From IMG/VR virus record IMGVR_UViG_3300037307_000721: 64,000 nt of DNA. One strand, 5' to 3'. This DNA comes from a virus. Position 1 is the first letter of the stretch. Each line of letters begins with the position of its first letter. Below, in pieces: positions 35,993 through 54,481 of this stretch. The notes below the pieces were generated by a model, which was not told the DNA's origin, searched no databases, and was given only the letters and a program-made list of their open reading frames with translations. The position numbers and the translations under genes are program-made.

Positions 35993-36075
35993 TGGGGCGG
36001 GGAGGACTCGAACACTCCGACCCTCCCGGGGCGCCAAGGCGCCGGCGGGATGCTCTACCGCTGAGCTACCGCCCC
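35993..36075 (-). ncRNA. tRNA-like RNA with anticodon loop replaced by GC hairpin
   Basis: GGGGCGG/CCGCCCC acceptor; D arm; TCCCG-[CCGGCGCCTTGGCGCCC]-CGGGA; TTCGA T loop. Confidence 0.6.
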
Positions 36076-40912: not shown

Positions 40913-41524
40913 CTACTTGTAGGCCTCCCTGAGGATCTTCTTGTCGAAGTCCGACGGGAGGACGAACTTCATCTCCTCGGTTTGCCCGGGCTGCACCGGA
41001 TACATGATGCTGCGCGGGGCCTCATCGTGTGCGAGACCGAGCACGTGCCCGAGCTCGTGTGCCGCGTAGCGCATGACGGCATGGACATCGGATGGCTCGC
41101 TGATCTCAACGGCGGCCGAGGTCGGACCGTCGGGCCCACCCTTGTGACTCGTGTTGCCGCCCGCCTCACTGCCCGGCGTCTTGCTGCCCCAGGAGACGAC
41201 GACCTTCGCCTTGGCCTTGTCCGCCTCGAGCTTGAAGACCTCGCCGATCTCCTGGTTCCACATCTTGAGCGCGCCGATGATGCTCTCGCGGTAGTTCGCC
41301 TCGGCGTGCTTGTCGAGGTCGAGCGCGACGGTGAGCGGGATGTCACTCTTCTTCCACTTGAGCTCGACCTTCGGCTGGCAGTCGGGAGCGTAGTTGGCCT
41401 GCCCGTTCGCCCAGCAGACCTGCATGAAGCCCGGCTCCTTGTGCGTGAGGACGCCGTAGAGAACGCCCGCGCCCGCGCCAACGAAGACGATGATGCCGAT
41501 GACGTACCAAACCCACTTCTTCAT
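40913..41524 (-). CDS. matrixin-type metzincin metalloprotease, membrane-anchored
   Basis: HELGHVLGLAH + SIMYP Met-turn; N-terminal TM. Confidence 0.9.
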   Translation of the reverse strand: MKKWVWYVIGIIVFVGAGAGVLYGVLTHKEPGFMQVCWANGQANYAPDCQPKVELKWKKSDIPLTVALDLDKHAEANYRESIIGALKMWNQEIGEVFKLEADKAKAKVVVSWGSKTPGSEAGGNTSHKGGPDGPTSAAVEISEPSDVHAVMRYAAHELGHVLGLAHDEAPRSIMYPVQPGQTEEMKFVLPSDFDKKILREAYK

Positions 41525-43553: not shown

Positions 43554-44177
43554 CTAGGCGATGCGAATCAACGAGGAGGGCGTGAGCTGCCAGCTCCGCT
43601 TCTTGCCCTGCTCGAGGAAGGTCTGCGCCACCTGGGCGATGAGCGCGCCGGCCATCGCGTGGAAGGGCAGGTTCTGCCCGTCCTCGCAGGTCGCCGCGCC
43701 GTCGCCGCCGGAGTCGGCGTTGAAGTCCTCGGTCCAGACCGCCCGGGCCACCGTGCCGTCGCCGGACAGGCACCCGTGCAGGCAGGGAACGATGGACTCG
43801 AGAGGCTTGCGCGGGTCGGTGTGCTGGTCTACATGGCAGCGTCCGCAGTGCAGCTGGATGAGCCTCCGCGCCTCGTAGTTGTCCGTGCAGTCGATGACGA
43901 GCGACCCGCCGAGGATGTCGAGGTTGCTCTCGAGCAGCTTGTGCGGGATCGCGTTGACCCGGCACTTGAACATCCCCGACAGGGCCTGCTGCACGGCCAG
44001 CGCCTTGTTCTTGCCCTTGCCGAGCTCGGTGTGAAACTGGCTCTGGATGTTCTTGGCCTCGACCCGATCGAAGTCGACCAGGTTGAGGCTCACGCCCGAC
44101 CAGTTCCGCGCGAAGAGCGCGACGTGGGAGCCCAAGGCGCCCATGCCGACGATGACGACTCGTCTTGGGGCTTCCAT
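43554..44177 (-). CDS. ThiF/E1-like adenylating enzyme
   Basis: VVIVGMGALGS, VDFDRVE.KN..SQ, GKNKA, VIDCTDN..AR, C-terminal TCE. Confidence 0.93.
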   Translation of the reverse strand: MEAPRRVVIVGMGALGSHVALFARNWSGVSLNLVDFDRVEAKNIQSQFHTELGKGKNKALAVQQALSGMFKCRVNAIPHKLLESNLDILGGSLVIDCTDNYEARRLIQLHCGRCHVDQHTDPRKPLESIVPCLHGCLSGDGTVARAVWTEDFNADSGGDGAATCEDGQNLPFHAMAGALIAQVAQTFLEQGKKRSWQLTPSSLIRIA

Positions 44178-44187
44178 GCTGTACCTC

Positions 44188-44793
44188 CTATCGCGAGACC
44201 ACGTGCAGCTTGCGCGGGATCTGGTCCAGCGTCGCGGCGAGAGCTGCGTTGTCCTCCTGGACCTTGCCGGGCAGGTTGCGCTTGACCTTCGCGTAGAACG
44301 GGCTCTCGAGCCACTCGGCGTACTGCATGCGACCGCGGGCCTTGTTGCACTTGCGGCAGCACGCGACGAGGTTGGCTTCGATGCTCGGGCCGCCCTCCTC
44401 CCAGAGCACCAGGTGGTCGACCGTGAGCGGGACCTTGTCGTTCCAGCAGTAACGGCAGCGGTAGCCGTCGCGCCGGTAGACGTTCCAGGAGACGCCCTGT
44501 TCGATCTGGCGCGTCGACTTCCTGATGATGACCTTGGCGAGCTTGCCGTCGCTCGCCTTGGCCAGCACCTCGGTCTCGAGGAGGTCGGTCTGCTTGACGA
44601 TCTGCTCCCAATCGCCCTGGGTCAGGTTGAGGGTGAAGAGCTTGCGCCCATCGAGATGATCATCTGGCAGCAAGCACAGGTAGAGCTTCTCCGAGTCCCC
44701 GTAGATGACGCCGGCGACCTGGATGGTGTGCCCGAACTTCTGGAGCTCGAGCGTGAGAAAATCGATCGAGAGTGGCGGGTTGTCGACAAGCAT
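44188..44793 (-). CDS. HNH nuclease with N-terminal extension
   Basis: RRDGYRCRYC...TVDH...GG....NLVACC..CN..RG. Confidence 0.88.
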   Translation of the reverse strand: MLVDNPPLSIDFLTLELQKFGHTIQVAGVIYGDSEKLYLCLLPDDHLDGRKLFTLNLTQGDWEQIVKQTDLLETEVLAKASDGKLAKVIIRKSTRQIEQGVSWNVYRRDGYRCRYCWNDKVPLTVDHLVLWEEGGPSIEANLVACCRKCNKARGRMQYAEWLESPFYAKVKRNLPGKVQEDNAALAATLDQIPRKLHVVSR

Positions 44794-44799
44794 CGCCGG

Positions 44800-45075
44800 T
44801 CACCCACCGAACTCGGTCTTCGGCCGGAGGAAGATGCGCGGGGGCAGGTCGCCCGTCGCGTCGAAGCGCTCGACGACGAAGTCCCGGAAGTTGACATTCG
44901 GGTCGGCGTCGATGCCCTGGATGTAGCCGGTTCGCACCGCCTCGGAGGCGATCGTCTTCACGTCGCCCTCGGTGGTGTCGATGCCGACCATGTCGGGGAG
45001 GTCCCCGTTCTGGCCGCGCCAGGTCACGTTGAGCCTCGCCTGGTTCCTGTTGAAGACCACGATTTCGTCTGCCAT
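44800..45075 (-). CDS. ubiquitin-like beta-grasp protein ending in -GG
   Basis: 91 aa, ends IFLRPKTEFGG; sits between JAB and E1. Confidence 0.75.
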   Translation of the reverse strand: MADEIVVFNRNQARLNVTWRGQNGDLPDMVGIDTTEGDVKTIASEAVRTGYIQGIDADPNVNFRDFVVERFDATGDLPPRIFLRPKTEFGG

Positions 45076-45096
45076 GGTTGATACCCCTTCCTTTCT

Positions 45097-45471
45097 TTAC
45101 CTCGAGAGGTCTCGTAGTTCCTCGATGCTCTCCTTCGGTATCCTGAAGCGCCGCTGCGTGAGCGGTGCGTAGTCCGTTCGTTCCGGCCCCACCCACTCGA
45201 AGTAGCCCACCTCCGAGAAGGTGACGATCGGCCAGACCAGTCTCTGACCGAGAGCCTCCTCGATCGCGGCGAAGGTCGTCACGTCGATGGAAGATGGGCT
45301 GGCAGCGCCGTGCCAAGGGTGCGTGTGCGCGACGCCACCCAGGTGCTCCCGGTTCTCCCAGAGCACCTCCCAGAGTGACCGACTGTCGGGCAGGTAGCCC
45401 TGGGAGCGATCTGCCGGCACGTGCCAGTGAATGACGCCGCCGTACTTGCTGAAGACGAGTCCAGTTTCCAT
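45097..45471 (-). CDS. JAB/MPN+ metallo-isopeptidase
   Basis: METGLV (Glu)...AHTHP...SPSSID (JAMM motif). Confidence 0.88.
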   Translation of the reverse strand: METGLVFSKYGGVIHWHVPADRSQGYLPDSRSLWEVLWENREHLGGVAHTHPWHGAASPSSIDVTTFAAIEEALGQRLVWPIVTFSEVGYFEWVGPERTDYAPLTQRRFRIPKESIEELRDLSR

Positions 45472-45886
45472 CAGAACGTGCCCTTGCTCTTGCACGAGCG
45501 CTTGCGCTTGCCGCACTCGAAGCACTCGAGCTCGACCCCGTCGCGCACCCGCTGCCGGTATTCCCAGTCGTGCCGTCCGAGCCTGCAGAGCAAACGGCGA
45601 AGGCCCGGGAGCCGATGCCAGTTGTCGACGTGTCGGAAGAAGCCGAGCGCGCCGATGAGATTCTCGATCTTCTTCATCGCTACCCCGCGTCGAACATGCG
45701 AATGAAGGCGCCGCAGTTGGTGCAGTGGATGTCGCCCTCGTGCCACATCATGGAGTAGTTGCGCATCTCCCGATGCTCCGGGTCATCGTCCCCGCACTTG
45801 GGACACGGGATGGCTGCGCGGCCATCCTTCGCTCGCACGCTCATGACGCCGCACTCAACGCCTCGCTCGTCGTACGCCGTTGGCAT
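45471..45886 (-). CDS. two small Zn-ribbon ORFs (45471-45677, 45680-45886)
   Basis: LC.LGRHDW...CFECG; CPKC...CTNC. Confidence 0.55.
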
Positions 45887-46840
45887 TCAGTCGTCCTCCC
45901 ACTCGTTTGGCTCGTCGCCTTCGACGTGCCGCCAGACCACCAGCCGGCCCTCGCGGATGGCCTGTCGGATGACGCCCGGGAGCGTCTCCAGGTTGAACTC
46001 GGTGTCGTACTTCCTGCCTGTCCGGTGGTCGGTCAGGCAGACACCCGCGTCGATGATGTTGAGCGTGCGCCGGTCGCAGGTGCACTCGAGCCGCCTGTTC
46101 TCGAACCGGTACTGCACGATCATCTCGCCGTGGTTGAAGGCCGGCCGCACCGCGATGAGCTCGGCGCCGCCAGCCCGAAGCGCGGCTGCCGCGGCCGCGC
46201 TGAAGTCCGTCTGGGCCAGCAGTCGGCGCCCATGCCCCGTGCCGATGAGCCGCAGGGCCTGCTCGCGAAGCGCCTCTTCCTGGCGCCGGCGCTCGGTCTC
46301 CGCGCGCCGACGCTCGACCTCGAGACGCTGTCGGCTCATGAAGCGAAAGGCCAGGTCCAGGGCTGGCGTCACGTCCTTGACGCGGGCGACAGAGTCCTGG
46401 CGGTCCACGAAGGCCCTCCGCACGGCCACCTCCGCCCCACCTTCGAAGAGCGGCATGGCGAAGATGGCTCGGTGTTCCTCGTCGAATGCGACCAGCACCG
46501 GGATGAAGAGGTCCAGACCGCGATCGACGAGGAACACCGGCACGGTCTGGTCCACGAGCTTGTCCGGGTCGGGGTCGACACGGGCCTTCTCGGGGATGAA
46601 GCGGTCGCCGGCGAGGTAGCCTCTCGCCGTGACCTTGTTGTCCTGGAAGTCCGCCGGCCGGTCCGCCTCGCCCTTGAGCGTGGCGACTCGGCCTGCGAGC
46701 TCGAAGAGGTACCATCCGAACTCGCGCGGGAGGGGGTTGGTTGCTCTCCAGGTACGACCGTCGCGGTGGACCTTCCGTCCGCCGAGCCACGGCAGCACCT
46801 GGCTTTCCGTGGTCGGCTGAAGAAGGTCTTGCCAGGTCAT
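45887..46840 (-). CDS. conserved hypothetical protein, candidate E2-like Cys carrier
   Basis: 317 aa; central coiled coil; C-terminal IIDAGVCL...DT.F.LE.LP motif; operon context only. Confidence 0.5.
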   Translation of the reverse strand: MTWQDLLQPTTESQVLPWLGGRKVHRDGRTWRATNPLPREFGWYLFELAGRVATLKGEADRPADFQDNKVTARGYLAGDRFIPEKARVDPDPDKLVDQTVPVFLVDRGLDLFIPVLVAFDEEHRAIFAMPLFEGGAEVAVRRAFVDRQDSVARVKDVTPALDLAFRFMSRQRLEVERRRAETERRRQEEALREQALRLIGTGHGRRLLAQTDFSAAAAAALRAGGAELIAVRPAFNHGEMIVQYRFENRRLECTCDRRTLNIIDAGVCLTDHRTGRKYDTEFNLETLPGVIRQAIREGRLVVWRHVEGDEPNEWEDD

Positions 46841-46853
46841 GCGCTGGTCTCCT

Positions 46854-48767
46854 CTATGCCCAGGCGGGCTTCTGAAGAAGAGGCGTCTTCAAGATCTGCT
46901 CGATGAGCGAGACCCGCGTCGGCACCGGAGCTGCCGGGCCGGTGACCTTGCGAACCGGCGTGGCAGTGATCAGGTTCCTCAGCGTGCGACTCACCGCGTA
47001 CGGATCGTTGAAGATCTCCTCGTCGATCGGGAAGCAGGGCACGTTGAGACGCCCCGCCGCCTGGTGGATGAGCGAGTCGGGTCTGCCCGGCGCGCCCATC
47101 GAGTCGATGTGAAGCAGGCCGAAAGCAACCGGCTCGACGCCGGACTGCTGGATGGCCCGCACCAGGTAGTCGATCCCCGGGCCGAGGCCCGAAGAGTCCT
47201 GCTCGTCGCCGACGAAGAAGAGGAGCGCGTCCTCGGTCGCCGCCGGCTTGTGCCGCTCGAGCAAGCAGCGGGCTCCCGCCGCGTAGCTCGTCCCGCCGCC
47301 CGCGTTGTGACCCCTGAAGGCCTGGGCCACACCCACCGCCGAGGGGACCTTGATCTCGACTTCGCGCCCCTCGGTGTTGAAGACGCACACGTGCAACCGG
47401 TCGAGCGGGAAGGCCGAGACGAGCCGAGCGAGACACTCCTTCGCCCGCTCGATGGCCCCTTGCATGGACCCGCTCTTGTCGACGATGACGTAGATCCGGA
47501 AGTCCTTCGCGACCTCCGCCACCGCCTTCTGCGCGGCCTGGTCGGCCGCCTGCTCGAGCTGCTCCTTGACCGCGACGTCCTTGACGTTGCGGGCGATGTT
47601 CGCCGCCCGCTGGTTCTCGGCCTTCTCCGTCGCCGCCTTCCACCGCTTGGCGATCTGCTCCACCTGGAGAAGCCCGAGCTCCTCGAGCGTCGGGGTCAGG
47701 ATGATGAGGTCAGCGTCGCTGAGCCCACCGCCCTCGATCGCCGCCGCCATGATGGCCGGCGTCAGCCCGGGGTCCGTCGGGAGCATGCCCACGATGCGCT
47801 TCCACGACAGCCTGCCCACCACGATGCGCTCGCAGATCTGCTTCTCGCTCAGGCCCTTCCAGCTCTCGGCCGCGGCGACTTCCTTGCCGATGGCCAGCCC
47901 TCGCCGCCCGTCCTTGGCCTGCACCTGCTTCCAGCGCAGGAGCTCAAAGAAGCGCTCGGCCTGCGGCTTGTAGCCCACCTTGCGAGCGAGCTGCATGACC
48001 GCCTGGCGAAAGCCCTCCTTGAGCACCTTCTCGAGCAGCTTGATGTTCGCCTCGTGATGCGCGAGCCACTTCTCCACGGCCTTGTAGTACCGGCCGGTCG
48101 GAGCGGTCCGCGCCGACTGCCCGAAGCCAAGCTTCCGGTTGATCTCGACGACCGCCGGGAGCTCGAGCACCTCGCCAACCCGGAGCAGGAGCTTCGGGTT
48201 GAACGTCCCGCCCTTCTTCCTGGACCGGATGAGGCACATGGCCTCGCCCACCGCGCGGTAGTCGTCGTCGAGCAAGGTGGCGTCGCCATCCTTGATCGGT
48301 TCCCCGTAGCGGTTCTGCACCAGGAGGAACGCGGCGAGCAGCACCTTGAGGTCCCGGTTCTCCTCGTGCTCGAAGGCGTAGGACGCCCACTTCGCGGCGA
48401 ACTCGTTGTCGATCCGCCAGACGTCGGCGATCTGCGAGTAGAGATGCGCCACGACCTCGGGGAAGAGGCCCGGCGCACGGAACTCCGCGACCACCCGACC
48501 GGCCTCGATGACCCGAGCGGAGCCCGGCTCGCCGATTCCGATGCGGGTCTTGTGCTGCTTCTTGCCGACCTTCTTGACGGTGTAGACGACCTTCTGCTCG
48601 CCCTCCTTGACCCAGGTCGCCTGCTCCCAGCGCTTGCCCCAGGGCTGACGCTGGTCGTCGAAGACGACGCCGGGCCGGTTGTGGACGGCGTGGTCGGTGA
48701 AACGGGTGATGGTCTGGATGATTCGCTCGGCGGGGCCGAGCGCCTCGAGGCGCTCTTGCGCGTTCAT
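46854..48767 (-). CDS. TROVE/Ro60-like helical protein with C-terminal vWA domain
   Basis: Long helical N-terminal region; IVDKSGSM MIDAS, GGTS, FVGDE; preceded by tRNA-like RNAs. Confidence 0.75.
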   Translation of the reverse strand: MNAQERLEALGPAERIIQTITRFTDHAVHNRPGVVFDDQRQPWGKRWEQATWVKEGEQKVVYTVKKVGKKQHKTRIGIGEPGSARVIEAGRVVAEFRAPGLFPEVVAHLYSQIADVWRIDNEFAAKWASYAFEHEENRDLKVLLAAFLLVQNRYGEPIKDGDATLLDDDYRAVGEAMCLIRSRKKGGTFNPKLLLRVGEVLELPAVVEINRKLGFGQSARTAPTGRYYKAVEKWLAHHEANIKLLEKVLKEGFRQAVMQLARKVGYKPQAERFFELLRWKQVQAKDGRRGLAIGKEVAAAESWKGLSEKQICERIVVGRLSWKRIVGMLPTDPGLTPAIMAAAIEGGGLSDADLIILTPTLEELGLLQVEQIAKRWKAATEKAENQRAANIARNVKDVAVKEQLEQAADQAAQKAVAEVAKDFRIYVIVDKSGSMQGAIERAKECLARLVSAFPLDRLHVCVFNTEGREVEIKVPSAVGVAQAFRGHNAGGGTSYAAGARCLLERHKPAATEDALLFFVGDEQDSSGLGPGIDYLVRAIQQSGVEPVAFGLLHIDSMGAPGRPDSLIHQAAGRLNVPCFPIDEEIFNDPYAVSRTLRNLITATPVRKVTGPAAPVPTRVSLIEQILKTPLLQKPAWA

Positions 48768-48862: not shown

Positions 48863-48960
48863 AGCGGACTTGGGTTTGTGTAGCAGGACTTGAACCTGCG
48901 ACCTCATGGGTATCAACCATGCGCTCAACCAACTGAGCTGTACACTTGTGTGCTTCCGCT
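48863..48960 (-). ncRNA. degenerate tRNA-Ile(GAT) core inside an outer stem
   Basis: D, anticodon and T arms intact; acceptor only 5 bp (GTGTA/TACAC); outer AGCGGA/TCCGCT helix. Confidence 0.55.
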
Positions 48961-48981: not shown

Positions 48982-49098
48982 TGGAGGAGCAGGGAGTCGA
49001 ACCCTGGCTAACGTGTAGGCTTGGACTTGGGGAGGCCGGTCACCCGACCCCGAGTCGCCAAGCTGTGACTCGTATCCGCAACCCGTGCGGACTCCTCC
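48982..49098 (-). ncRNA. tRNA/Y-RNA-like chimera 4
   Basis: GGAGGAG/CTCCTCC acceptor; T arm CAGGG-TTCGACT-CCCTG; insert ends CCAAGC-CTACACGT. Confidence 0.65.
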
Positions 49099-49103
49099 AG
49101 TAG

Positions 49104-49248
49104 CGGGGCGCCCAGGATTCGAACCTGGATGACTTGTAGGCTGAAGCTGTTGGGCCTGAGCAGCAAGCTGCCCGCGCTCGAGACCTCCAGCGGGAGTGTG
49201 TTGTGCTGGTCCCAAAAACCAGTGCCTTTTCCGTTAGGCTAGCGCCCC
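49104..49248 (-). ncRNA. tRNA/Y-RNA-like chimera 3 (Gln-TTG core, about 77-nt variable-loop insert)
   Basis: Full cloverleaf plus insert GCTGGAG...CTTCAGC-CTACAAGTCAT. Confidence 0.75.
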
Positions 49249-49288
49249 GATGACGCTTCGTTCTCACTCCTCTTACCAACAACTGCAG

Positions 49289-49419
49289 AGCCGGGGGACG
49301 GAGTCGAACCGTCTGACTTGTAGGCTTGAGCTCGATGGGTCCGACTGCTCGGACCCGAGACGCTCAGGCTGGGATGGACTGGTTGGAAGCCAGTTGCCCT
49401 GCCGTTGGGCGTCCCCGGC
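49289..49419 (-). ncRNA. tRNA/Y-RNA-like chimera 2 (Gly-TCC core, about 65-nt insert)
   Basis: Cloverleaf, U73; insert GCCTGAGC...GCTCAAGC-CTACAAGTCA. Confidence 0.75.
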
Positions 49420-49424
49420 GATAT

Positions 49425-49586
49425 TCAATTTTTGCCCCGAGGGGCTTCTTGCTTTCCTTCCCTGGCCCGCTGAGCCGCCTTCCTGATTCGTTCGGCGTAC
49501 TCGCGAGCCCACTCCCCGAGCGTTTGTGTGCGGCCCGTCTTCGGGTCCGTCAGCAGCTTGTTCTCGGGCAGCTCGTCATCTTCCAT
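49425..49586 (-). CDS. 53-aa hypothetical protein
   Basis: MEDDELPENKLLTDPKTGRTQTLGEWAREY... Confidence 0.4.
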   Translation of the reverse strand: MEDDELPENKLLTDPKTGRTQTLGEWAREYAERIRKAAQRAREGKQEAPRGKN

Positions 49587-49590
49587 CTTC

Positions 49591-49730
49591 GGTGCCGGCG
49601 CGAGGATTCGAACCTCGATTCACTTGTAGGCTTGAGCTGTGAAGCTCTTGCGAGCTCGAGTACCCCAAGCGGGTTGTGGTTGTTCTTGGTTTAGGAGTCC
49701 AAGTGCCTTTTCCAATTCGGCCACGCCGGC
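49591..49730 (-). ncRNA. tRNA/Y-RNA-like chimera 1 (9-nt anticodon loop, about 70-nt insert)
   Basis: GCCGGCG/CGCCGGC acceptor; insert GCTTGGG...CTCAAGC-CTACAAGTG. Confidence 0.75.
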
Positions 49731-52520: not shown

Positions 52521-52655
52521 CCGCGCCCGAGATGTCAGACCTGGATCTTGCTCGATTTTCCGTCGAGTGCCTTCCCGTTAGGCTAGCTCCCCGTAGAGTG
52601 GGGAGCCCAGGGGTCGAACCTGGATGACTTGTCGGGTCTATCTGGTTGGACGCGG
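52521..52655 (-). ncRNA. circularly permuted tRNA-like RNA (YrlA-type topology)
   Basis: Terminal stem CCGCGTCC/GGGCGCGG; order T arm, looped acceptor stem, D arm, anticodon-like arm. Confidence 0.75.
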
Positions 52656-52661
52656 AATCGG

Positions 52662-52745
52662 CGGAGAGCCGGGGAGTCGAACCCCGCTGGCCTTTCGACC
52701 GCACCCGGGTAGCAACCGGGCCGCGCGCCATCGCACACGCTCTCC
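52662..52745 (-). tRNA. tRNA-Ser(GCT)
   Basis: Long variable arm, G73. Confidence 0.85.
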
Positions 52746-54406: not shown

Positions 54407-54481
54407 TGGTCCACCAGGTGAGATTCGAACTCACGACCTGTCGGTTATCAGCCGACCGCTCTGCCTCTGAGCCTCTGGTGG
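54407..54481 (-). tRNA. tRNA-Ile(GAT)
   Basis: Cloverleaf; CCA. Confidence 0.9.

What the first reader, a model, noticed from the sequence alone, without database searches (positions are those of the whole stretch)
48982..49730. Family of four tRNA-chimeric RNAs carrying a conserved Y-like domain in the variable loop
Seen: 117-145-nt elements with 7-bp acceptor stems, D arms and canonical T arms. Two have valid anticodon arms (Gln-TTG, Gly-TCC with U73). Each has a large insert: C/A-rich linker, helix GCY(U)GRG, variable hairpins, CUYAAGC, then a near-invariant CUACA(A/C)GU just before the T arm. Primary sequences differ while helices covary. Established: bacterial Y RNAs (YrlA) lie next to rsr and mimic tRNA D/T/acceptor arms. 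Inference: a new Y-RNA class with open, potentially chargeable acceptor ends, which could bring an aminoacyl group or a ribosome/RNase to the Ro-like protein.
Basis: partly seen in the sequence, partly recalled or inferred. Interest (0 to 1): 0.9.

Follow-up and report, generated by a model that had tools for sequence, protein, structure and literature searches.

The report
tRNA-shaped partner RNAs of phage Ro60-like protein
A huge phage encodes four tRNA-shaped small RNAs (and a fifth, rearranged copy) that carry one conserved extra arm and always travel with a gene for a Ro60-like RNA-binding ring, so they are probably a new, tRNA-topology form of the Y RNAs that partner Ro60.

Summary
Four elements of 138, 131, 145 and 117 nt lie on the minus strand at 48982-49730. 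Each has a 7-bp acceptor stem, a D arm, a T arm and a 50-75-nt structured insert in the variable region.

The insert is a conserved module: CC, helix P1, CUC, hairpin P2, then (Y)UACA(A/C)G before the T arm. A covariance model finds about 80 copies in more than 30 related huge-phage contigs, always on the strand of one operon: Ro60-like/vWA protein, 317-aa protein, JAB, ubiquitin-like protein, E1. Every contig tested with a good RNA match (23 of 23) encodes the Ro60-like protein. P1 and P2 covary.

It is circularly permuted: the acceptor is closed by a loop, and P1/P2 are formed by the RNA's own 5' and 3' ends, which is the classic Y-RNA layout. This form recurs in at least 15 other phages.

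The elements are not Rfam YrlA members, and the protein is Ro60-like by predicted fold only. Binding, expression and charging are untested.

Best reading (about 0.6): Y-RNA-like partners of the Ro60-like protein, released by tRNA-processing enzymes. This scan has noted the same kind of RNP before on other DNA. I found no paper describing it.

The parts
49593..49730 (-). Element A, open-acceptor tRNA-shaped RNA, 138 nt. P1 is 49664-49670 with 49630-49636. CUC plus the P2 hairpin (GCAA loop) is 49642-49660. ACAAG is 49623-49627. The T arm is 49601-49617. The anticodon-like loop has 9 nt.
   Evidence: tRNA model 47.0 bits; R1 61.3 bits
49289..49419 (-). Element C, 131 nt. Anticodon loop CUUCCAA (UCC), discriminator U. 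P1 is 49363-49369 with 49324-49330. CUC plus P2 is 49337-49359. ACAAG is 49317-49321. The T arm is 49297-49313.
   Evidence: 42.9 bits; 53.4 bits
49104..49248 (-). Element B, 145 nt. Anticodon loop UUUUGGG (UUG), discriminator G. P1 is 49185-49191 with 49140-49146. CUC plus a longer P2 is 49158-49182. ACAAG is 49133-49137. The T arm is 49112-49128.
   Evidence: 45.6 bits; 57.9 bits
48982..49098 (-). Element D, 117 nt, with no anticodon arm. P1 is 49058-49063 with 49019-49024. CUC plus P2 (GUGA loop) is 49031-49054. ACACG is 49012-49016. The T arm is 48990-49006.
   Evidence: (51.9 bits)
52521..52655 (-). Fifth copy, circularly permuted (Y-RNA layout), 135 nt. In order: P2 3' strand 52648-52655, P1 3' strand 52635-52640, ACAAG 52628-52632, T arm 52607-52623, closed 7-bp acceptor hairpin 52586-52606, D arm, anticodon-like arm, P1 5' strand 52536-52541, CUC plus P2 5' strand 52521-52531. 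It fills the gap between two tRNA-Ser genes.
   Evidence: R1 32.2 bits on its 5' part; minimum-energy fold gives exactly this layout
48873..48947 (-). tRNA-Ile(GAU)-like gene between element D and the protein gene. Its acceptor stem is imperfect in the Rfam alignment. A second tRNA-Ile(GAU) lies at 54407-54481.
46854..48767 (-). 637-aa Ro60-like protein. It has an N-terminal beta module, a helical-repeat domain (about residues 100-420), and a C-terminal vWA domain with MIDAS residues D430, S432, S434, T493 and D521 invariant among 32 homologs.
45887..46840 (-). 317-aa protein of unknown family. It is conserved directly after the Ro60-like gene in about 50 loci.
45097..45525 (-). JAB/MPN peptidase (Prok-JAB, 24.2 bits, just under the 25-bit cut-off). 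Conserved in the operon.
44800..45075 (-). 91-aa candidate ubiquitin-like protein ending in FGG. Conserved in the operon.
43554..44177 (-). E1-like ThiF-family enzyme, the last gene of the conserved operon. An HNH endonuclease gene (44188-44793) is inserted before it in this phage.

Best explanation
These are phage non-coding RNAs built on a complete tRNA scaffold: 7-bp acceptor, D arm, usually an anticodon-like arm, and a T arm with an intact elbow. A conserved extra arm projects from the variable region. It reads CC, helix P1 (7-8 bp, with a frequent C.U or U.U at its second pair), a short internal loop holding CUC, hairpin P2, an A/C-rich return strand, P1's 3' strand, then UACA(N)G.

Shown. 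The family exists in two circularly permuted layouts that give the same fold. In the open-acceptor form (the four elements here) P2 is capped by a tetraloop. In the closed-acceptor form (52521-52655) P1 and P2 are made by the RNA's 5' and 3' ends, as in Y RNAs. Both forms are fixed parts of one operon: Ro60-like/vWA, 317-aa protein, JAB, Ubl, E1.

Inferred.
1. The RNAs are cut out of the tRNA-array transcript by RNase P and the tRNA 3'-end enzymes. The permuted copy is released by processing of its two flanking tRNAs.
2. The P1/CUC/P2/UACANG arm is the handle held by the Ro60-like ring.
3. The tRNA-shaped body is the effector end. It presents a tRNA look-alike to tRNA-binding enzymes or to RNA-damage and repair factors, as the tRNA-like domain of bacterial YrlA is thought to do.

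How the Ubl/E1/JAB genes connect to this particle is unknown.
For: The RNA family is real.
- Model R1 gives about 80 matches above 40 bits in 58 sources, all on the strand of the operon. Many come from loci that were not used to build it.
- P1 covaries at all 7 pairs. Slid controls fall to 48% paired or less, against 91%.
- P2 differs in sequence in nearly every copy, is 5-8 bp, and is mostly capped by GNRA or UUCG loops.
- 64 distinct elements have a perfect 7-bp acceptor complement 25-60 nt upstream, although the model held only the 3' strand.

Link to the operon.
- The order Ro60-like, p317, JAB, Ubl, E1 is conserved in about 45 loci.
- The RNAs start 50-200 nt after E1 in most loci, or just upstream of the Ro60-like gene (window, L002, L003, L008, L009, L025, L055).
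- In five records with nothing inside 5-kb flanks, the RNAs lie 5-10 kb downstream on the same strand.
- A complete, protein-independent pattern scan of 2.9 million viral contigs was combined with R1. All 23 contigs with a match of 35 bits or more encode a homolog of the protein, down to 31% identity.

Ro60-like protein.
- The full-length model's best Foldseek match is the Thermus phage TROVE domain, over 547 columns.
- The N-terminal domain alone, compared with 48,161 chains, finds D. radiodurans Rsr (Z 9.2), phage phiLo Ro60 (8.9) and Xenopus Ro (7.3) as its top three. The next chain scores 6.1.
- The vWA domain scores Z 16 and its MIDAS residues are invariant.

Y-RNA layout.
- Permuted copies in the window, in Rctr197k and in at least 15 other loci fold with a terminal stem and a closed acceptor.
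- P2 formed in trans is 9-12 bp and beat all 200 shuffles in 13 of 16 copies scored, with one better shuffle in two more and no valid score in one.
- The closed acceptor covaries at all 7 pairs.
- The Rctr197k copy gives a partial YrlA match over T arm, acceptor hairpin and D arm (24.5 bits).

Precedent. Y RNAs with tRNA-like domains are encoded next to Ro60 in bacteria and phages, and M. smegmatis YrlA is cut by RNase P and receives CCA (PMC4201824). Phage phiLo Ro60 binds two adjacent Y-like RNAs (PMC12135203).

Same design elsewhere. Felix O1 has clamp helix plus UACAGCAA units directly after a DUF2828 gene, among its tRNAs.
Against: - There are no expression, processing or binding data.
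- The protein has no Pfam TROVE or DUF2828 match and no sequence match to solved Ro60. The structural Z-scores are modest for a helical repeat, with rmsd of 11-15 A.
- The RNAs fail the YrlA model and lack the GNCGAA word.
- Co-occurrence with the protein is confounded by shared descent within one phage clade and by the general closeness of the operon to tRNA arrays.
- Four other operon proteins could be the true partner.
- Some copies keep a canonical anticodon loop with a matching discriminator. All five UCC copies have U73, and all four GUA copies have A73. This hints at selection for synthetase recognition rather than pure mimicry.
Confidence: 0.6

Rival explanations
1. The RNAs belong to the operon, but they are the partner or substrate of another of its proteins: the 317-aa protein, or the E1/Ubl/JAB chemistry. 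Examples would be a scaffold for Ubl transfer, or an RNA that is itself modified. The Ro60-like ring would then act on other RNAs.
For: The RNAs flank the whole five-gene operon and in most phages sit directly after E1, not after the Ro60-like gene. Ubl plus E1 pairs serve tRNA thiolation in other systems (my knowledge, not tested here). The 317-aa protein is as tightly conserved as the others and has no known family.
Against: No operon protein other than the Ro60-like one resembles an RNA-binding protein. The 317-aa protein shows no PP-loop or other tRNA-modifying family in Pfam. Elsewhere, RNAs of the same design sit beside Ro60-shaped genes without a Ubl cassette nearby, as in the 3.3-kb Felix O1 stretch examined.
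Confidence: 0.15
2. They are tRNA decoys or spare targets against host tRNA-cleaving defences (anticodon nucleases). They would work on their own, with the extra arm serving stability or nuclease evasion. The link to the Ro60-like gene would be only positional, inside the tRNA array.
For: They lie in an array of 47 tRNA genes. Anticodon-like loops are very diverse among otherwise homologous bodies. Several keep a recognisable anticodon triplet while position 33 is changed, for example CGGUAAA and CACAUAA.
Against: A decoy role does not explain the conserved arm with covarying helices and invariant CUC and ACANG words. It does not explain copies that have no anticodon arm at all (D, L025, L028, L040). 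It also does not explain the strict co-occurrence with the protein in 23 of 23 contigs.
Confidence: 0.1
3. They are working, chargeable tRNAs with a giant variable arm, used in translation or in another aminoacyl-transfer reaction.
For: B and C have canonical 7-nt loops with U33, a purine at 37, and discriminators that fit Gln and Gly. 18 of 59 family members with an anticodon-like hairpin have a canonical loop. All have perfect acceptor stems and T arms.
Against: A has a 9-nt loop and D has no anticodon arm. Most family members have loops of 3-9 nt or lack U33. Normal tRNA-Gly(UCC) and tRNA-Gln(UUG) genes are present in the same array. The permuted isoform has no free acceptor end.
Confidence: 0.08
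4. They are interrupted or permuted tRNA genes. The insert would be spliced out, and the permuted copy re-joined through a circular intermediate, as for the permuted tRNA genes of a red alga, to give ordinary tRNAs.
For: The insert sits at a defined place before the T arm. The permuted gene order (3' half before 5' half) is formally like permuted tRNA genes. RNA ligases are common in huge phages (PMC7824862).
Against: There is no bulge-helix-bulge motif, and the insert is too small for a group I or group II intron. The insert is the most conserved part of the RNA. Copies without an anticodon arm, or with aberrant loops, would give no usable tRNA.
Confidence: 0.05

Closest known systems
Bacterial and phage YrlA Y RNAs with Ro60/Rsr (Rfam RF02553; Chen et al. 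2014, PMC4201824)
   Same: - A small RNA encoded beside a Ro60-type gene.
- A tRNA-like domain with D and T arms and an acceptor-like stem.
- In the permuted isoform, the same order (T arm, closed acceptor hairpin, D arm) and a long terminal stem with internal loops formed by the 5' and 3' ends.
- Several copies per locus.
- M. smegmatis YrlA is even opened by RNase P and receives CCA.
   Different: - No match to the YrlA model on the window. The best match, 24.5 bits against a cut-off of 69, is on the Rctr197k homolog.
- The stem leaves the variable region, not the anticodon-stem position, and a separate anticodon-like hairpin is present.
- The GNCGAA word is replaced by CC / CUC / UACANG.
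- Most copies have the normal tRNA topology with open acceptor ends.
- The protein is not detected by Pfam TROVE.
Thermus phage phiLo Ro60 with Yrl1/Yrl2 (PMC12135203; PDB 9KOP, 9L5Y)
   Same: A phage-encoded Ro60-type ring with two or more partner RNAs encoded just upstream. It is among the best structural matches of the protein here.
   Different: The phiLo RNAs are plain stem-bulge-stem Y-like RNAs with a CGAA word and no tRNA scaffold. The phiLo paper describes no Ubl/E1/JAB operon.
Clamp helix plus UACAGCAA small RNAs beside DUF2828 (Ro60-shaped) genes, as in Felix O1, and the Dictyostelium Class I RNAs of the same design (Rfam RF01414; PMC7919456)
   Same: The same order of parts: clamp strand, 1-2 nt, UACA..GCA word, variable insert, clamp strand. 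In Felix O1 the units lie among tRNA genes directly after a Ro60-shaped gene. For the viral RNAs this family is known to me only from this scan's notes.
   Different: - The word here carries one extra, variable base: UACA-N-GCA occurs 78 times on the gene strand against 14 on the other, while exact UACAGCAA occurs 3 against 3.
- There is a second outer helix (P2) and a CUC loop.
- The insert is a whole tRNA scaffold.
- RF01414 gives no match.
- The two proteins show no profile similarity.
Ordinary tRNA, including type II tRNAs with a long variable arm (Rfam RF00005)
   Same: Acceptor, D and T arms. In B and C, a canonical anticodon arm. Location in a tRNA array with 2-40-nt spacers. A, B and C pass the tRNA model's cut-off.
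   Different: The variable region is 50-75 nt and has its own conserved two-helix structure. Many members lack a usable anticodon loop. A permuted isoform exists.

Membership tests
YrlA (Rfam RF02553) | Scores at or above the family's gathering score (69 bits) with the curated covariance model | tested here: not met
   No match to any of the five window elements at E up to 10 or 1. The best match is 24.5 bits, partial (model positions 30-81), on the permuted Rctr197k homolog.
YrlA (Rfam RF02553) | tRNA-like domain in the order T arm, closed acceptor-like hairpin, D arm, with the RNA's ends forming a long stem | tested here: met
   Met by the permuted copy at 52521-52655 and by 16 relatives. 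The four elements of the finding have the opposite, open-acceptor topology.
YrlA (Rfam RF02553) | Conserved GNCGAAN0-1G word in the 5' strand of the Ro60-binding stem (PMC4201824) | tested here: not met
   The word is absent by eye from the five window elements read out and is not among the conserved columns of the two family alignments; no pattern scan was run. The conserved words there are CC, CUC and ACANG.
YrlA (Rfam RF02553) | Encoded next to a Ro60 ortholog | tested here: inconclusive
   The neighbour is Ro60-like by predicted fold but has no Pfam TROVE match.
tRNA (Rfam RF00005) | Passes the tRNA covariance model | tested here: met
   A 47.0, B 45.6 and C 42.9 bits against a cut-off of 29, each with a large insert. 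D does not pass. ARAGORN calls none.
tRNA (Rfam RF00005) | 7-nt anticodon loop with U33 and a purine at 37 | tested here: inconclusive
   Met by B and C. Not met by A (9 nt) or D (no arm). Met by 18 of 59 family members with such a hairpin.
tRNA (Rfam RF00005) | Aminoacylated and used in decoding | not testable with these tools
   Needs charging assays.
Ro60 / TROVE proteins | Pfam TROVE (PF05731) or the related DUF2828 (PF11443) match | tested here: not met
   Only vWA families match, at borderline scores. No DUF2828 match in the whole record at E up to 10. Profile and sequence searches of PDB find only vWA proteins.
Ro60 / TROVE proteins | Helical-repeat ring followed by a vWA domain with a MIDAS site | tested here: met
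   The order of domains and the MIDAS residues are conserved. The vWA domain scores Z 16. The N-terminal domain's three best matches of 48,161 chains are the three Ro60 representatives (Z 9.2, 8.9, 7.3; next 6.1), but rmsd is high, so ring closure is not shown.
Ro60 / TROVE proteins | Binds Y RNA on its outer face | not testable with these tools
   Needs a binding assay or a structure.
Clamp plus UACAGCAA handle RNAs / Class I RNA (RF01414) | Short clamp helix with the word UACAGCAA one base after its 5' strand | tested here: not met
   The design is the same but the word is UACA-N-GCA. Exact UACAGCAA is not enriched (3 against 3 by strand). No RF01414 match.

The most novel reading that the evidence does not exclude
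The open-acceptor copies are real substrates of the CCA-adding enzyme and of aminoacyl-tRNA synthetases. Gly, Tyr, Met and Gln identity would be kept while U33 is often lost, so they could be charged but not used in decoding. The Ro60-like/vWA particle, together with the Ubl, E1 and JAB proteins, would then use the charged or CCA-ended RNA as a substrate or carrier, for instance joining the ubiquitin-like protein to an RNA-borne group. That would link ubiquitin-like chemistry to a tRNA-shaped RNA.
Probability: 0.06. Interest if true: 0.92.

Novelty: new variant of a known kind. Interest (0 to 1): 0.72.

Why it matters
Ro60 and its Y RNAs are a conserved RNA-surveillance particle whose bacterial and viral forms are poorly understood. 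Three points stand out here.

1. One RNA fold is written in two circularly permuted gene orders side by side in the same genomes. One order has ordinary tRNA ends and the other has Y-RNA ends. This shows directly how a tRNA and a Y RNA can be inter-converted. It also tells which parts matter: the tRNA core plus the P1/CUC/P2/UACANG arm, not the termini.

2. It extends Ro60-type particles to a large clade of huge phages whose protein escapes Pfam.

3. The particle is hard-wired to a ubiquitin-like protein, its E1 and a JAB peptidase. I could find this pairing in no paper.

The system is small enough to rebuild in E. coli, so the partner and the role of the tRNA body are directly testable.

Tried and rejected
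Chance or pseudogene tRNAs. Rejected by the model scores, the covariation and the conservation in more than 30 contigs.

The motif match at 40915-40926. It is the end of an ORF just upstream of tRNA-Arg, a chance hit.

Recent derivation from this phage's own tRNA-Gly(UCC) or tRNA-Gln(UUG). The bodies are only about 65% identical to them, the same as to any tRNA of the array.

The 53-aa ORF between A and C (49425-49586). It has no Pfam or PHROG match and no relative in 57 loci, so I treat it as spacer.

Sequence-level proof that the protein is TROVE. Pfam, PHROGs (only phrog_850 'RNA-binding protein', E 0.0027), a PDB sequence search, a PDB profile search and hhalign against the Felix O1 DUF2828 protein all failed. 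Foldseek with the N-terminal domain alone gave no match at E 0.001 or better. The two Ro60 entries had the highest probabilities in that list, 0.77 and 0.87.

The 317-aa protein. No family was found by Pfam, PHROGs or the ESM Atlas.

More permuted copies through the Rfam YrlA model in five further loci. The only match was a pair of adjacent tRNAs, the known false positive.

The first loose pattern scan. It was replaced by a tighter, complete scan.

P2 in trans could not be counted on alignment A6, because MAFFT shifts the termini by one column in some rows. I used duplex energies against shuffles instead. That script picked the wrong ACAAG in the Rctr197k copy, which the full fold resolves.
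Full report
**Where this is**

The window is part of an 82-kb viral contig, about 55% complete. It carries 47 tRNA genes, all on the minus strand. Its nearest named relative is Virus Rctr197k from a methane-oxidising enrichment culture.

**The observation**

Read on the minus strand, 49730-48982 holds four elements:
- A, 49730-49593, 138 nt
- C, 49419-49289, 131 nt
- B, 49248-49104, 145 nt
- D, 49098-48982, 117 nt

Each folds with a 7-bp acceptor stem, a D hairpin and a T arm. The Rfam tRNA model matches A, B and C at 43-47 bits and treats 60-75 nt before the T arm as an insert. D and all ARAGORN calls fail. B has a canonical UUG loop with G73. C has a UCC loop with U73. A has a 9-nt loop. D has no anticodon arm.

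**The insert is a conserved module**

I searched for relatives of the downstream 637-aa protein. It has more than 2,000 homologs in metagenomes and 56 loci in viral contigs of up to 619 kb. A simple text scan of those loci already showed some 40 elements of the same build, all on the protein's strand.

An alignment of 35 modules (A5) has these invariant or nearly invariant columns:
- a C before P1
- CUCG after P1's 5' strand, which my text scan did not ask for
- ACA(A/C)G
- the T arm

Helix P1 covaries at all seven pairs. 91% of cells are paired against 61% in shuffles, and there are 129 double changes against 33. Sliding the partner by one column drops pairing to 48% or less. The second pair is often C.U or U.U.

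P2 starts with the G of CUCG and is 5-8 bp long. It has a different sequence in nearly every copy and is mostly capped by GCAA, GAAA or UUCG.

**Census**

Model R1 finds about 80 matches above 40 bits in the 58 sources. All are on the operon strand, and many are in loci that gave nothing to the model. These untrained members show that the true 3' core is ACA(A/C/U)G. The two bases before it vary, and the first of them often pairs with the base before P1 (A-U or G-C).

The model holds only the 3' acceptor strand. Even so, 64 distinct elements have a perfect 7-bp complement 25-60 nt upstream, followed by a D hairpin. 59 of them also have an anticodon-like hairpin, and 19 of those have a further small hairpin. 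Total lengths run from 107 to 151 nt.

The window's own record has only these four strong copies.

**A second, circularly permuted layout**

A weak R1 match at 52599-52672 turned out to be the 5' part of a fifth copy in another gene order. Its parts come in this order:
1. P2's 3' strand
2. linker
3. P1's 3' strand
4. ACAAG
5. T arm
6. a closed 7-bp acceptor hairpin
7. D arm
8. anticodon-like arm
9. CC, then P1's 5' strand
10. CUC, then P2's 5' strand

The minimum-energy fold gives exactly this. The energy z-score is only -1.45, so the support comes from homology, not from energy.

The same layout sits just after the operon in Rctr197k. There the Rfam YrlA model gives a partial match over T arm, acceptor hairpin and D arm (24.5 bits, E 0.006).

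A scan for a T arm followed by a closed acceptor hairpin found 24 candidate sites. I took 17 of them forward, 15 of which lie in other loci. In 16 of the 17 the 5' and 3' ends form P2 in trans: 9-12 bp, -16 to -23 kcal/mol, each with its own sequence. That was better than all 200 shuffles in 13 of these, with one better shuffle in two more. In the 17th, the Rctr197k copy, my script chose the wrong ACAAG, and the full fold shows the same stem. RNAalifold on the 17 sequences recovers P1 in trans, the T arm, the D arm, the anticodon-like arm and the closed acceptor. Compensatory changes occur at all seven acceptor pairs.

So the family has two topologies that give one fold. The arm in the variable loop is topologically the terminal stem of a Y RNA. 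The permuted window copy exactly fills the gap between two tRNA-Ser genes, so processing of its neighbours would release it.

**The gene context**

The 637-aa protein has a vWA domain. Its MIDAS residues D430, S432, S434, T493 and D521 are invariant in 32 homologs. It has no TROVE or DUF2828 match and no sequence match to solved Ro60.

Its predicted structure has pLDDT about 80. Full length, the best Foldseek match is the Thermus phage TROVE domain over 547 columns, and Ro60 entries recur down the list. The N-terminal 420 residues alone were compared with 48,161 representative chains without Foldseek. The top three are D. radiodurans Rsr (Z 9.2), phage phiLo Ro60 (Z 8.9) and Xenopus Ro (Z 7.3); the next chain scores 6.1. 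The Z-scores are modest and the rmsd is high. Still, these are the library's three Ro60 representatives, and the domain order matches Ro60. I read the protein as a distant Ro60-type protein with an added N-terminal beta module (about 85% sure).

Downstream follow:
- a 317-aa protein of no known family
- a zinc ribbon
- a JAB peptidase
- a 91-aa protein ending in FGG
- an inserted HNH gene
- a ThiF-type E1

The order Ro60-like, p317, JAB, Ubl, E1 is conserved in about 45 loci.

**Linkage of the RNAs to the operon**

In most loci the first RNA starts 50-200 nt after E1. In the window and six other loci the RNAs lie just upstream of the Ro60-like gene. In five records with no RNA inside the 5-kb flanks, whole-record searches find them 5-10 kb downstream on the same strand. 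One complete 376-kb phage has five copies, and one complete 398-kb phage has four or five. All lie within about 20 kb of the gene.

I also ran a complete scan of 2.9 million viral contigs with a word taken from the RNA only, followed by R1 and protein look-ups. All 23 contigs with an R1 match of 35 bits or more encode a homolog of the protein, some at only 31-41% identity. This is strong co-inheritance, but it is not independent of phylogeny.

**What the tRNA body says**

Anticodon-like loops vary widely among otherwise homologous bodies. 29 of 59 have 7 nt, 18 are canonical, 11 have 8 nt, and others have 3-9 nt. Five elements have no such arm.

Some triplets recur together with the discriminator expected for that identity: UCC with U73 in 5 of 5, GUA with A73 in 4 of 4, and CAU with A73 in 4 of 6. 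Position 33 is often changed in these copies. Because orthologs are not independent, this is only a hint that some open copies keep synthetase identity elements.

The bodies of A-D are no closer to this phage's own tRNA-Gly or tRNA-Gln than to any other tRNA.

**Comparison with what is known**

Y RNAs with tRNA-like domains beside Ro60 are known in bacteria and phages. In YrlA the order is stem, T arm, closed acceptor, D arm, stem, and M. smegmatis YrlA is cut by RNase P and gains CCA (PMC4201824). Phage phiLo Ro60 binds two adjacent Y-like RNAs and recruits host PNPase (PMC12135203). A survey of jumbo phages mentions ROT/TROVE proteins with 'a tRNA-like partner' in a few phages, but not this operon (PMC7824862).

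The present family differs in five ways:
- It fails the YrlA model and lacks GNCGAA.
- The arm leaves the variable region beside a separate anticodon-like hairpin.
- Most copies have normal tRNA ends.
- The protein escapes Pfam.
- The operon adds Ubl, E1 and JAB.

**Earlier notes of this scan**

Searches show that this scan has met the same kind of system before on other DNA:
- a Ro60-like/Ubl cassette followed by tRNA-mimic RNAs in huge phages
- handles in two permuted topologies
- a 'clamp helix plus UACAGCAA' handle beside DUF2828 genes

I found the permuted isoform and the operon before reading those notes, and I tested one of their claims directly. Felix O1 has a DUF2828 gene followed, among its tRNAs, by units of the form clamp strand, U, UACAGCAA, insert, clamp strand. 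The order of parts is the same as here.

In this clade the word has one extra variable base. UACA-N-GCA occurs 78 times on the gene strand against 14 on the other, while exact UACAGCAA occurs 3 against 3. The two proteins show no profile similarity. I therefore treat the resemblance as a shared design, not as shown homology. The same caution applies to the Dictyostelium Class I RNAs (PMC7919456), whose model does not match.

**Verdict**

The most likely reading (0.6) is a tRNA-topology variant of Y RNA that partners a divergent Ro60-like protein in huge phages. tRNA-processing enzymes would mature it, the conserved arm would be the protein handle, and the tRNA body would be the effector end.

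Rivals:
- partner of another operon protein (0.15)
- free-standing decoys (0.1)
- working tRNAs (0.08)
- spliced or re-joined tRNA genes (0.05)

None of the steps from transcription to binding has been observed.

Noticed in passing
window 43554-48767 (-): The Ro60-like gene heads a conserved operon: a 317-aa unknown protein, a Zn ribbon, JAB, a 91-aa protein ending in FGG, and a ThiF-type E1. In this phage an HNH homing-type gene is inserted. The same order holds in about 45 huge-phage loci. I found no paper that joins a Ro60-type protein to ubiquitin-like chemistry.
   Followed up: partly
window 35993-36075 (-): Rfam calls a tRNA here (45.2 bits) that ARAGORN misses. The anticodon arm appears to be replaced by a long closed hairpin (stem UCCCG/CGGGA enclosing GGCGCC-UU-GGCGCC), so it looks like another tRNA mimic without an anticodon loop.
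   Followed up: no
related loci, e.g. L026:11546-11686, L019:10055-10189, L011:11478-11611: Eleven of 59 family members have 8-nt anticodon-like loops, for example AUUUAGGA, AUAUUGGA and CAUUUCAA. That is the loop size of frameshift-suppressor tRNAs. Several 7-nt loops keep a recognisable anticodon but have G or A at position 33.
   Followed up: partly
L010:10393-10453, L045:11059-11119: Minimal family members in which P1 encloses only 12 nt, with no CUC and no P2, before UUACAAG and the T arm. This suggests P2 is dispensable in some copies.
   Followed up: no
window 48873-48947 (-) and 54407-54481 (-): There are two tRNA-Ile(GAU) genes. The copy next to the Ro60-like gene has an imperfect acceptor stem in the Rfam alignment and may be degenerate.
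   Followed up: no
window 49425-49586 (-): A 53-aa ORF lies between elements A and C. It has no family match and no relative in 57 related loci. It is probably non-coding spacer, but the 170-nt gap is unusual for this array.
   Followed up: partly
L198 and L204 records (G012, G013): Two further viral contigs have weaker RNA matches (36-39 bits) and much more distant homologs of the protein (31-32% identity, ORFs of 491 and 572 aa). The RNA-protein pair may therefore extend well beyond this clade.
   Followed up: partly
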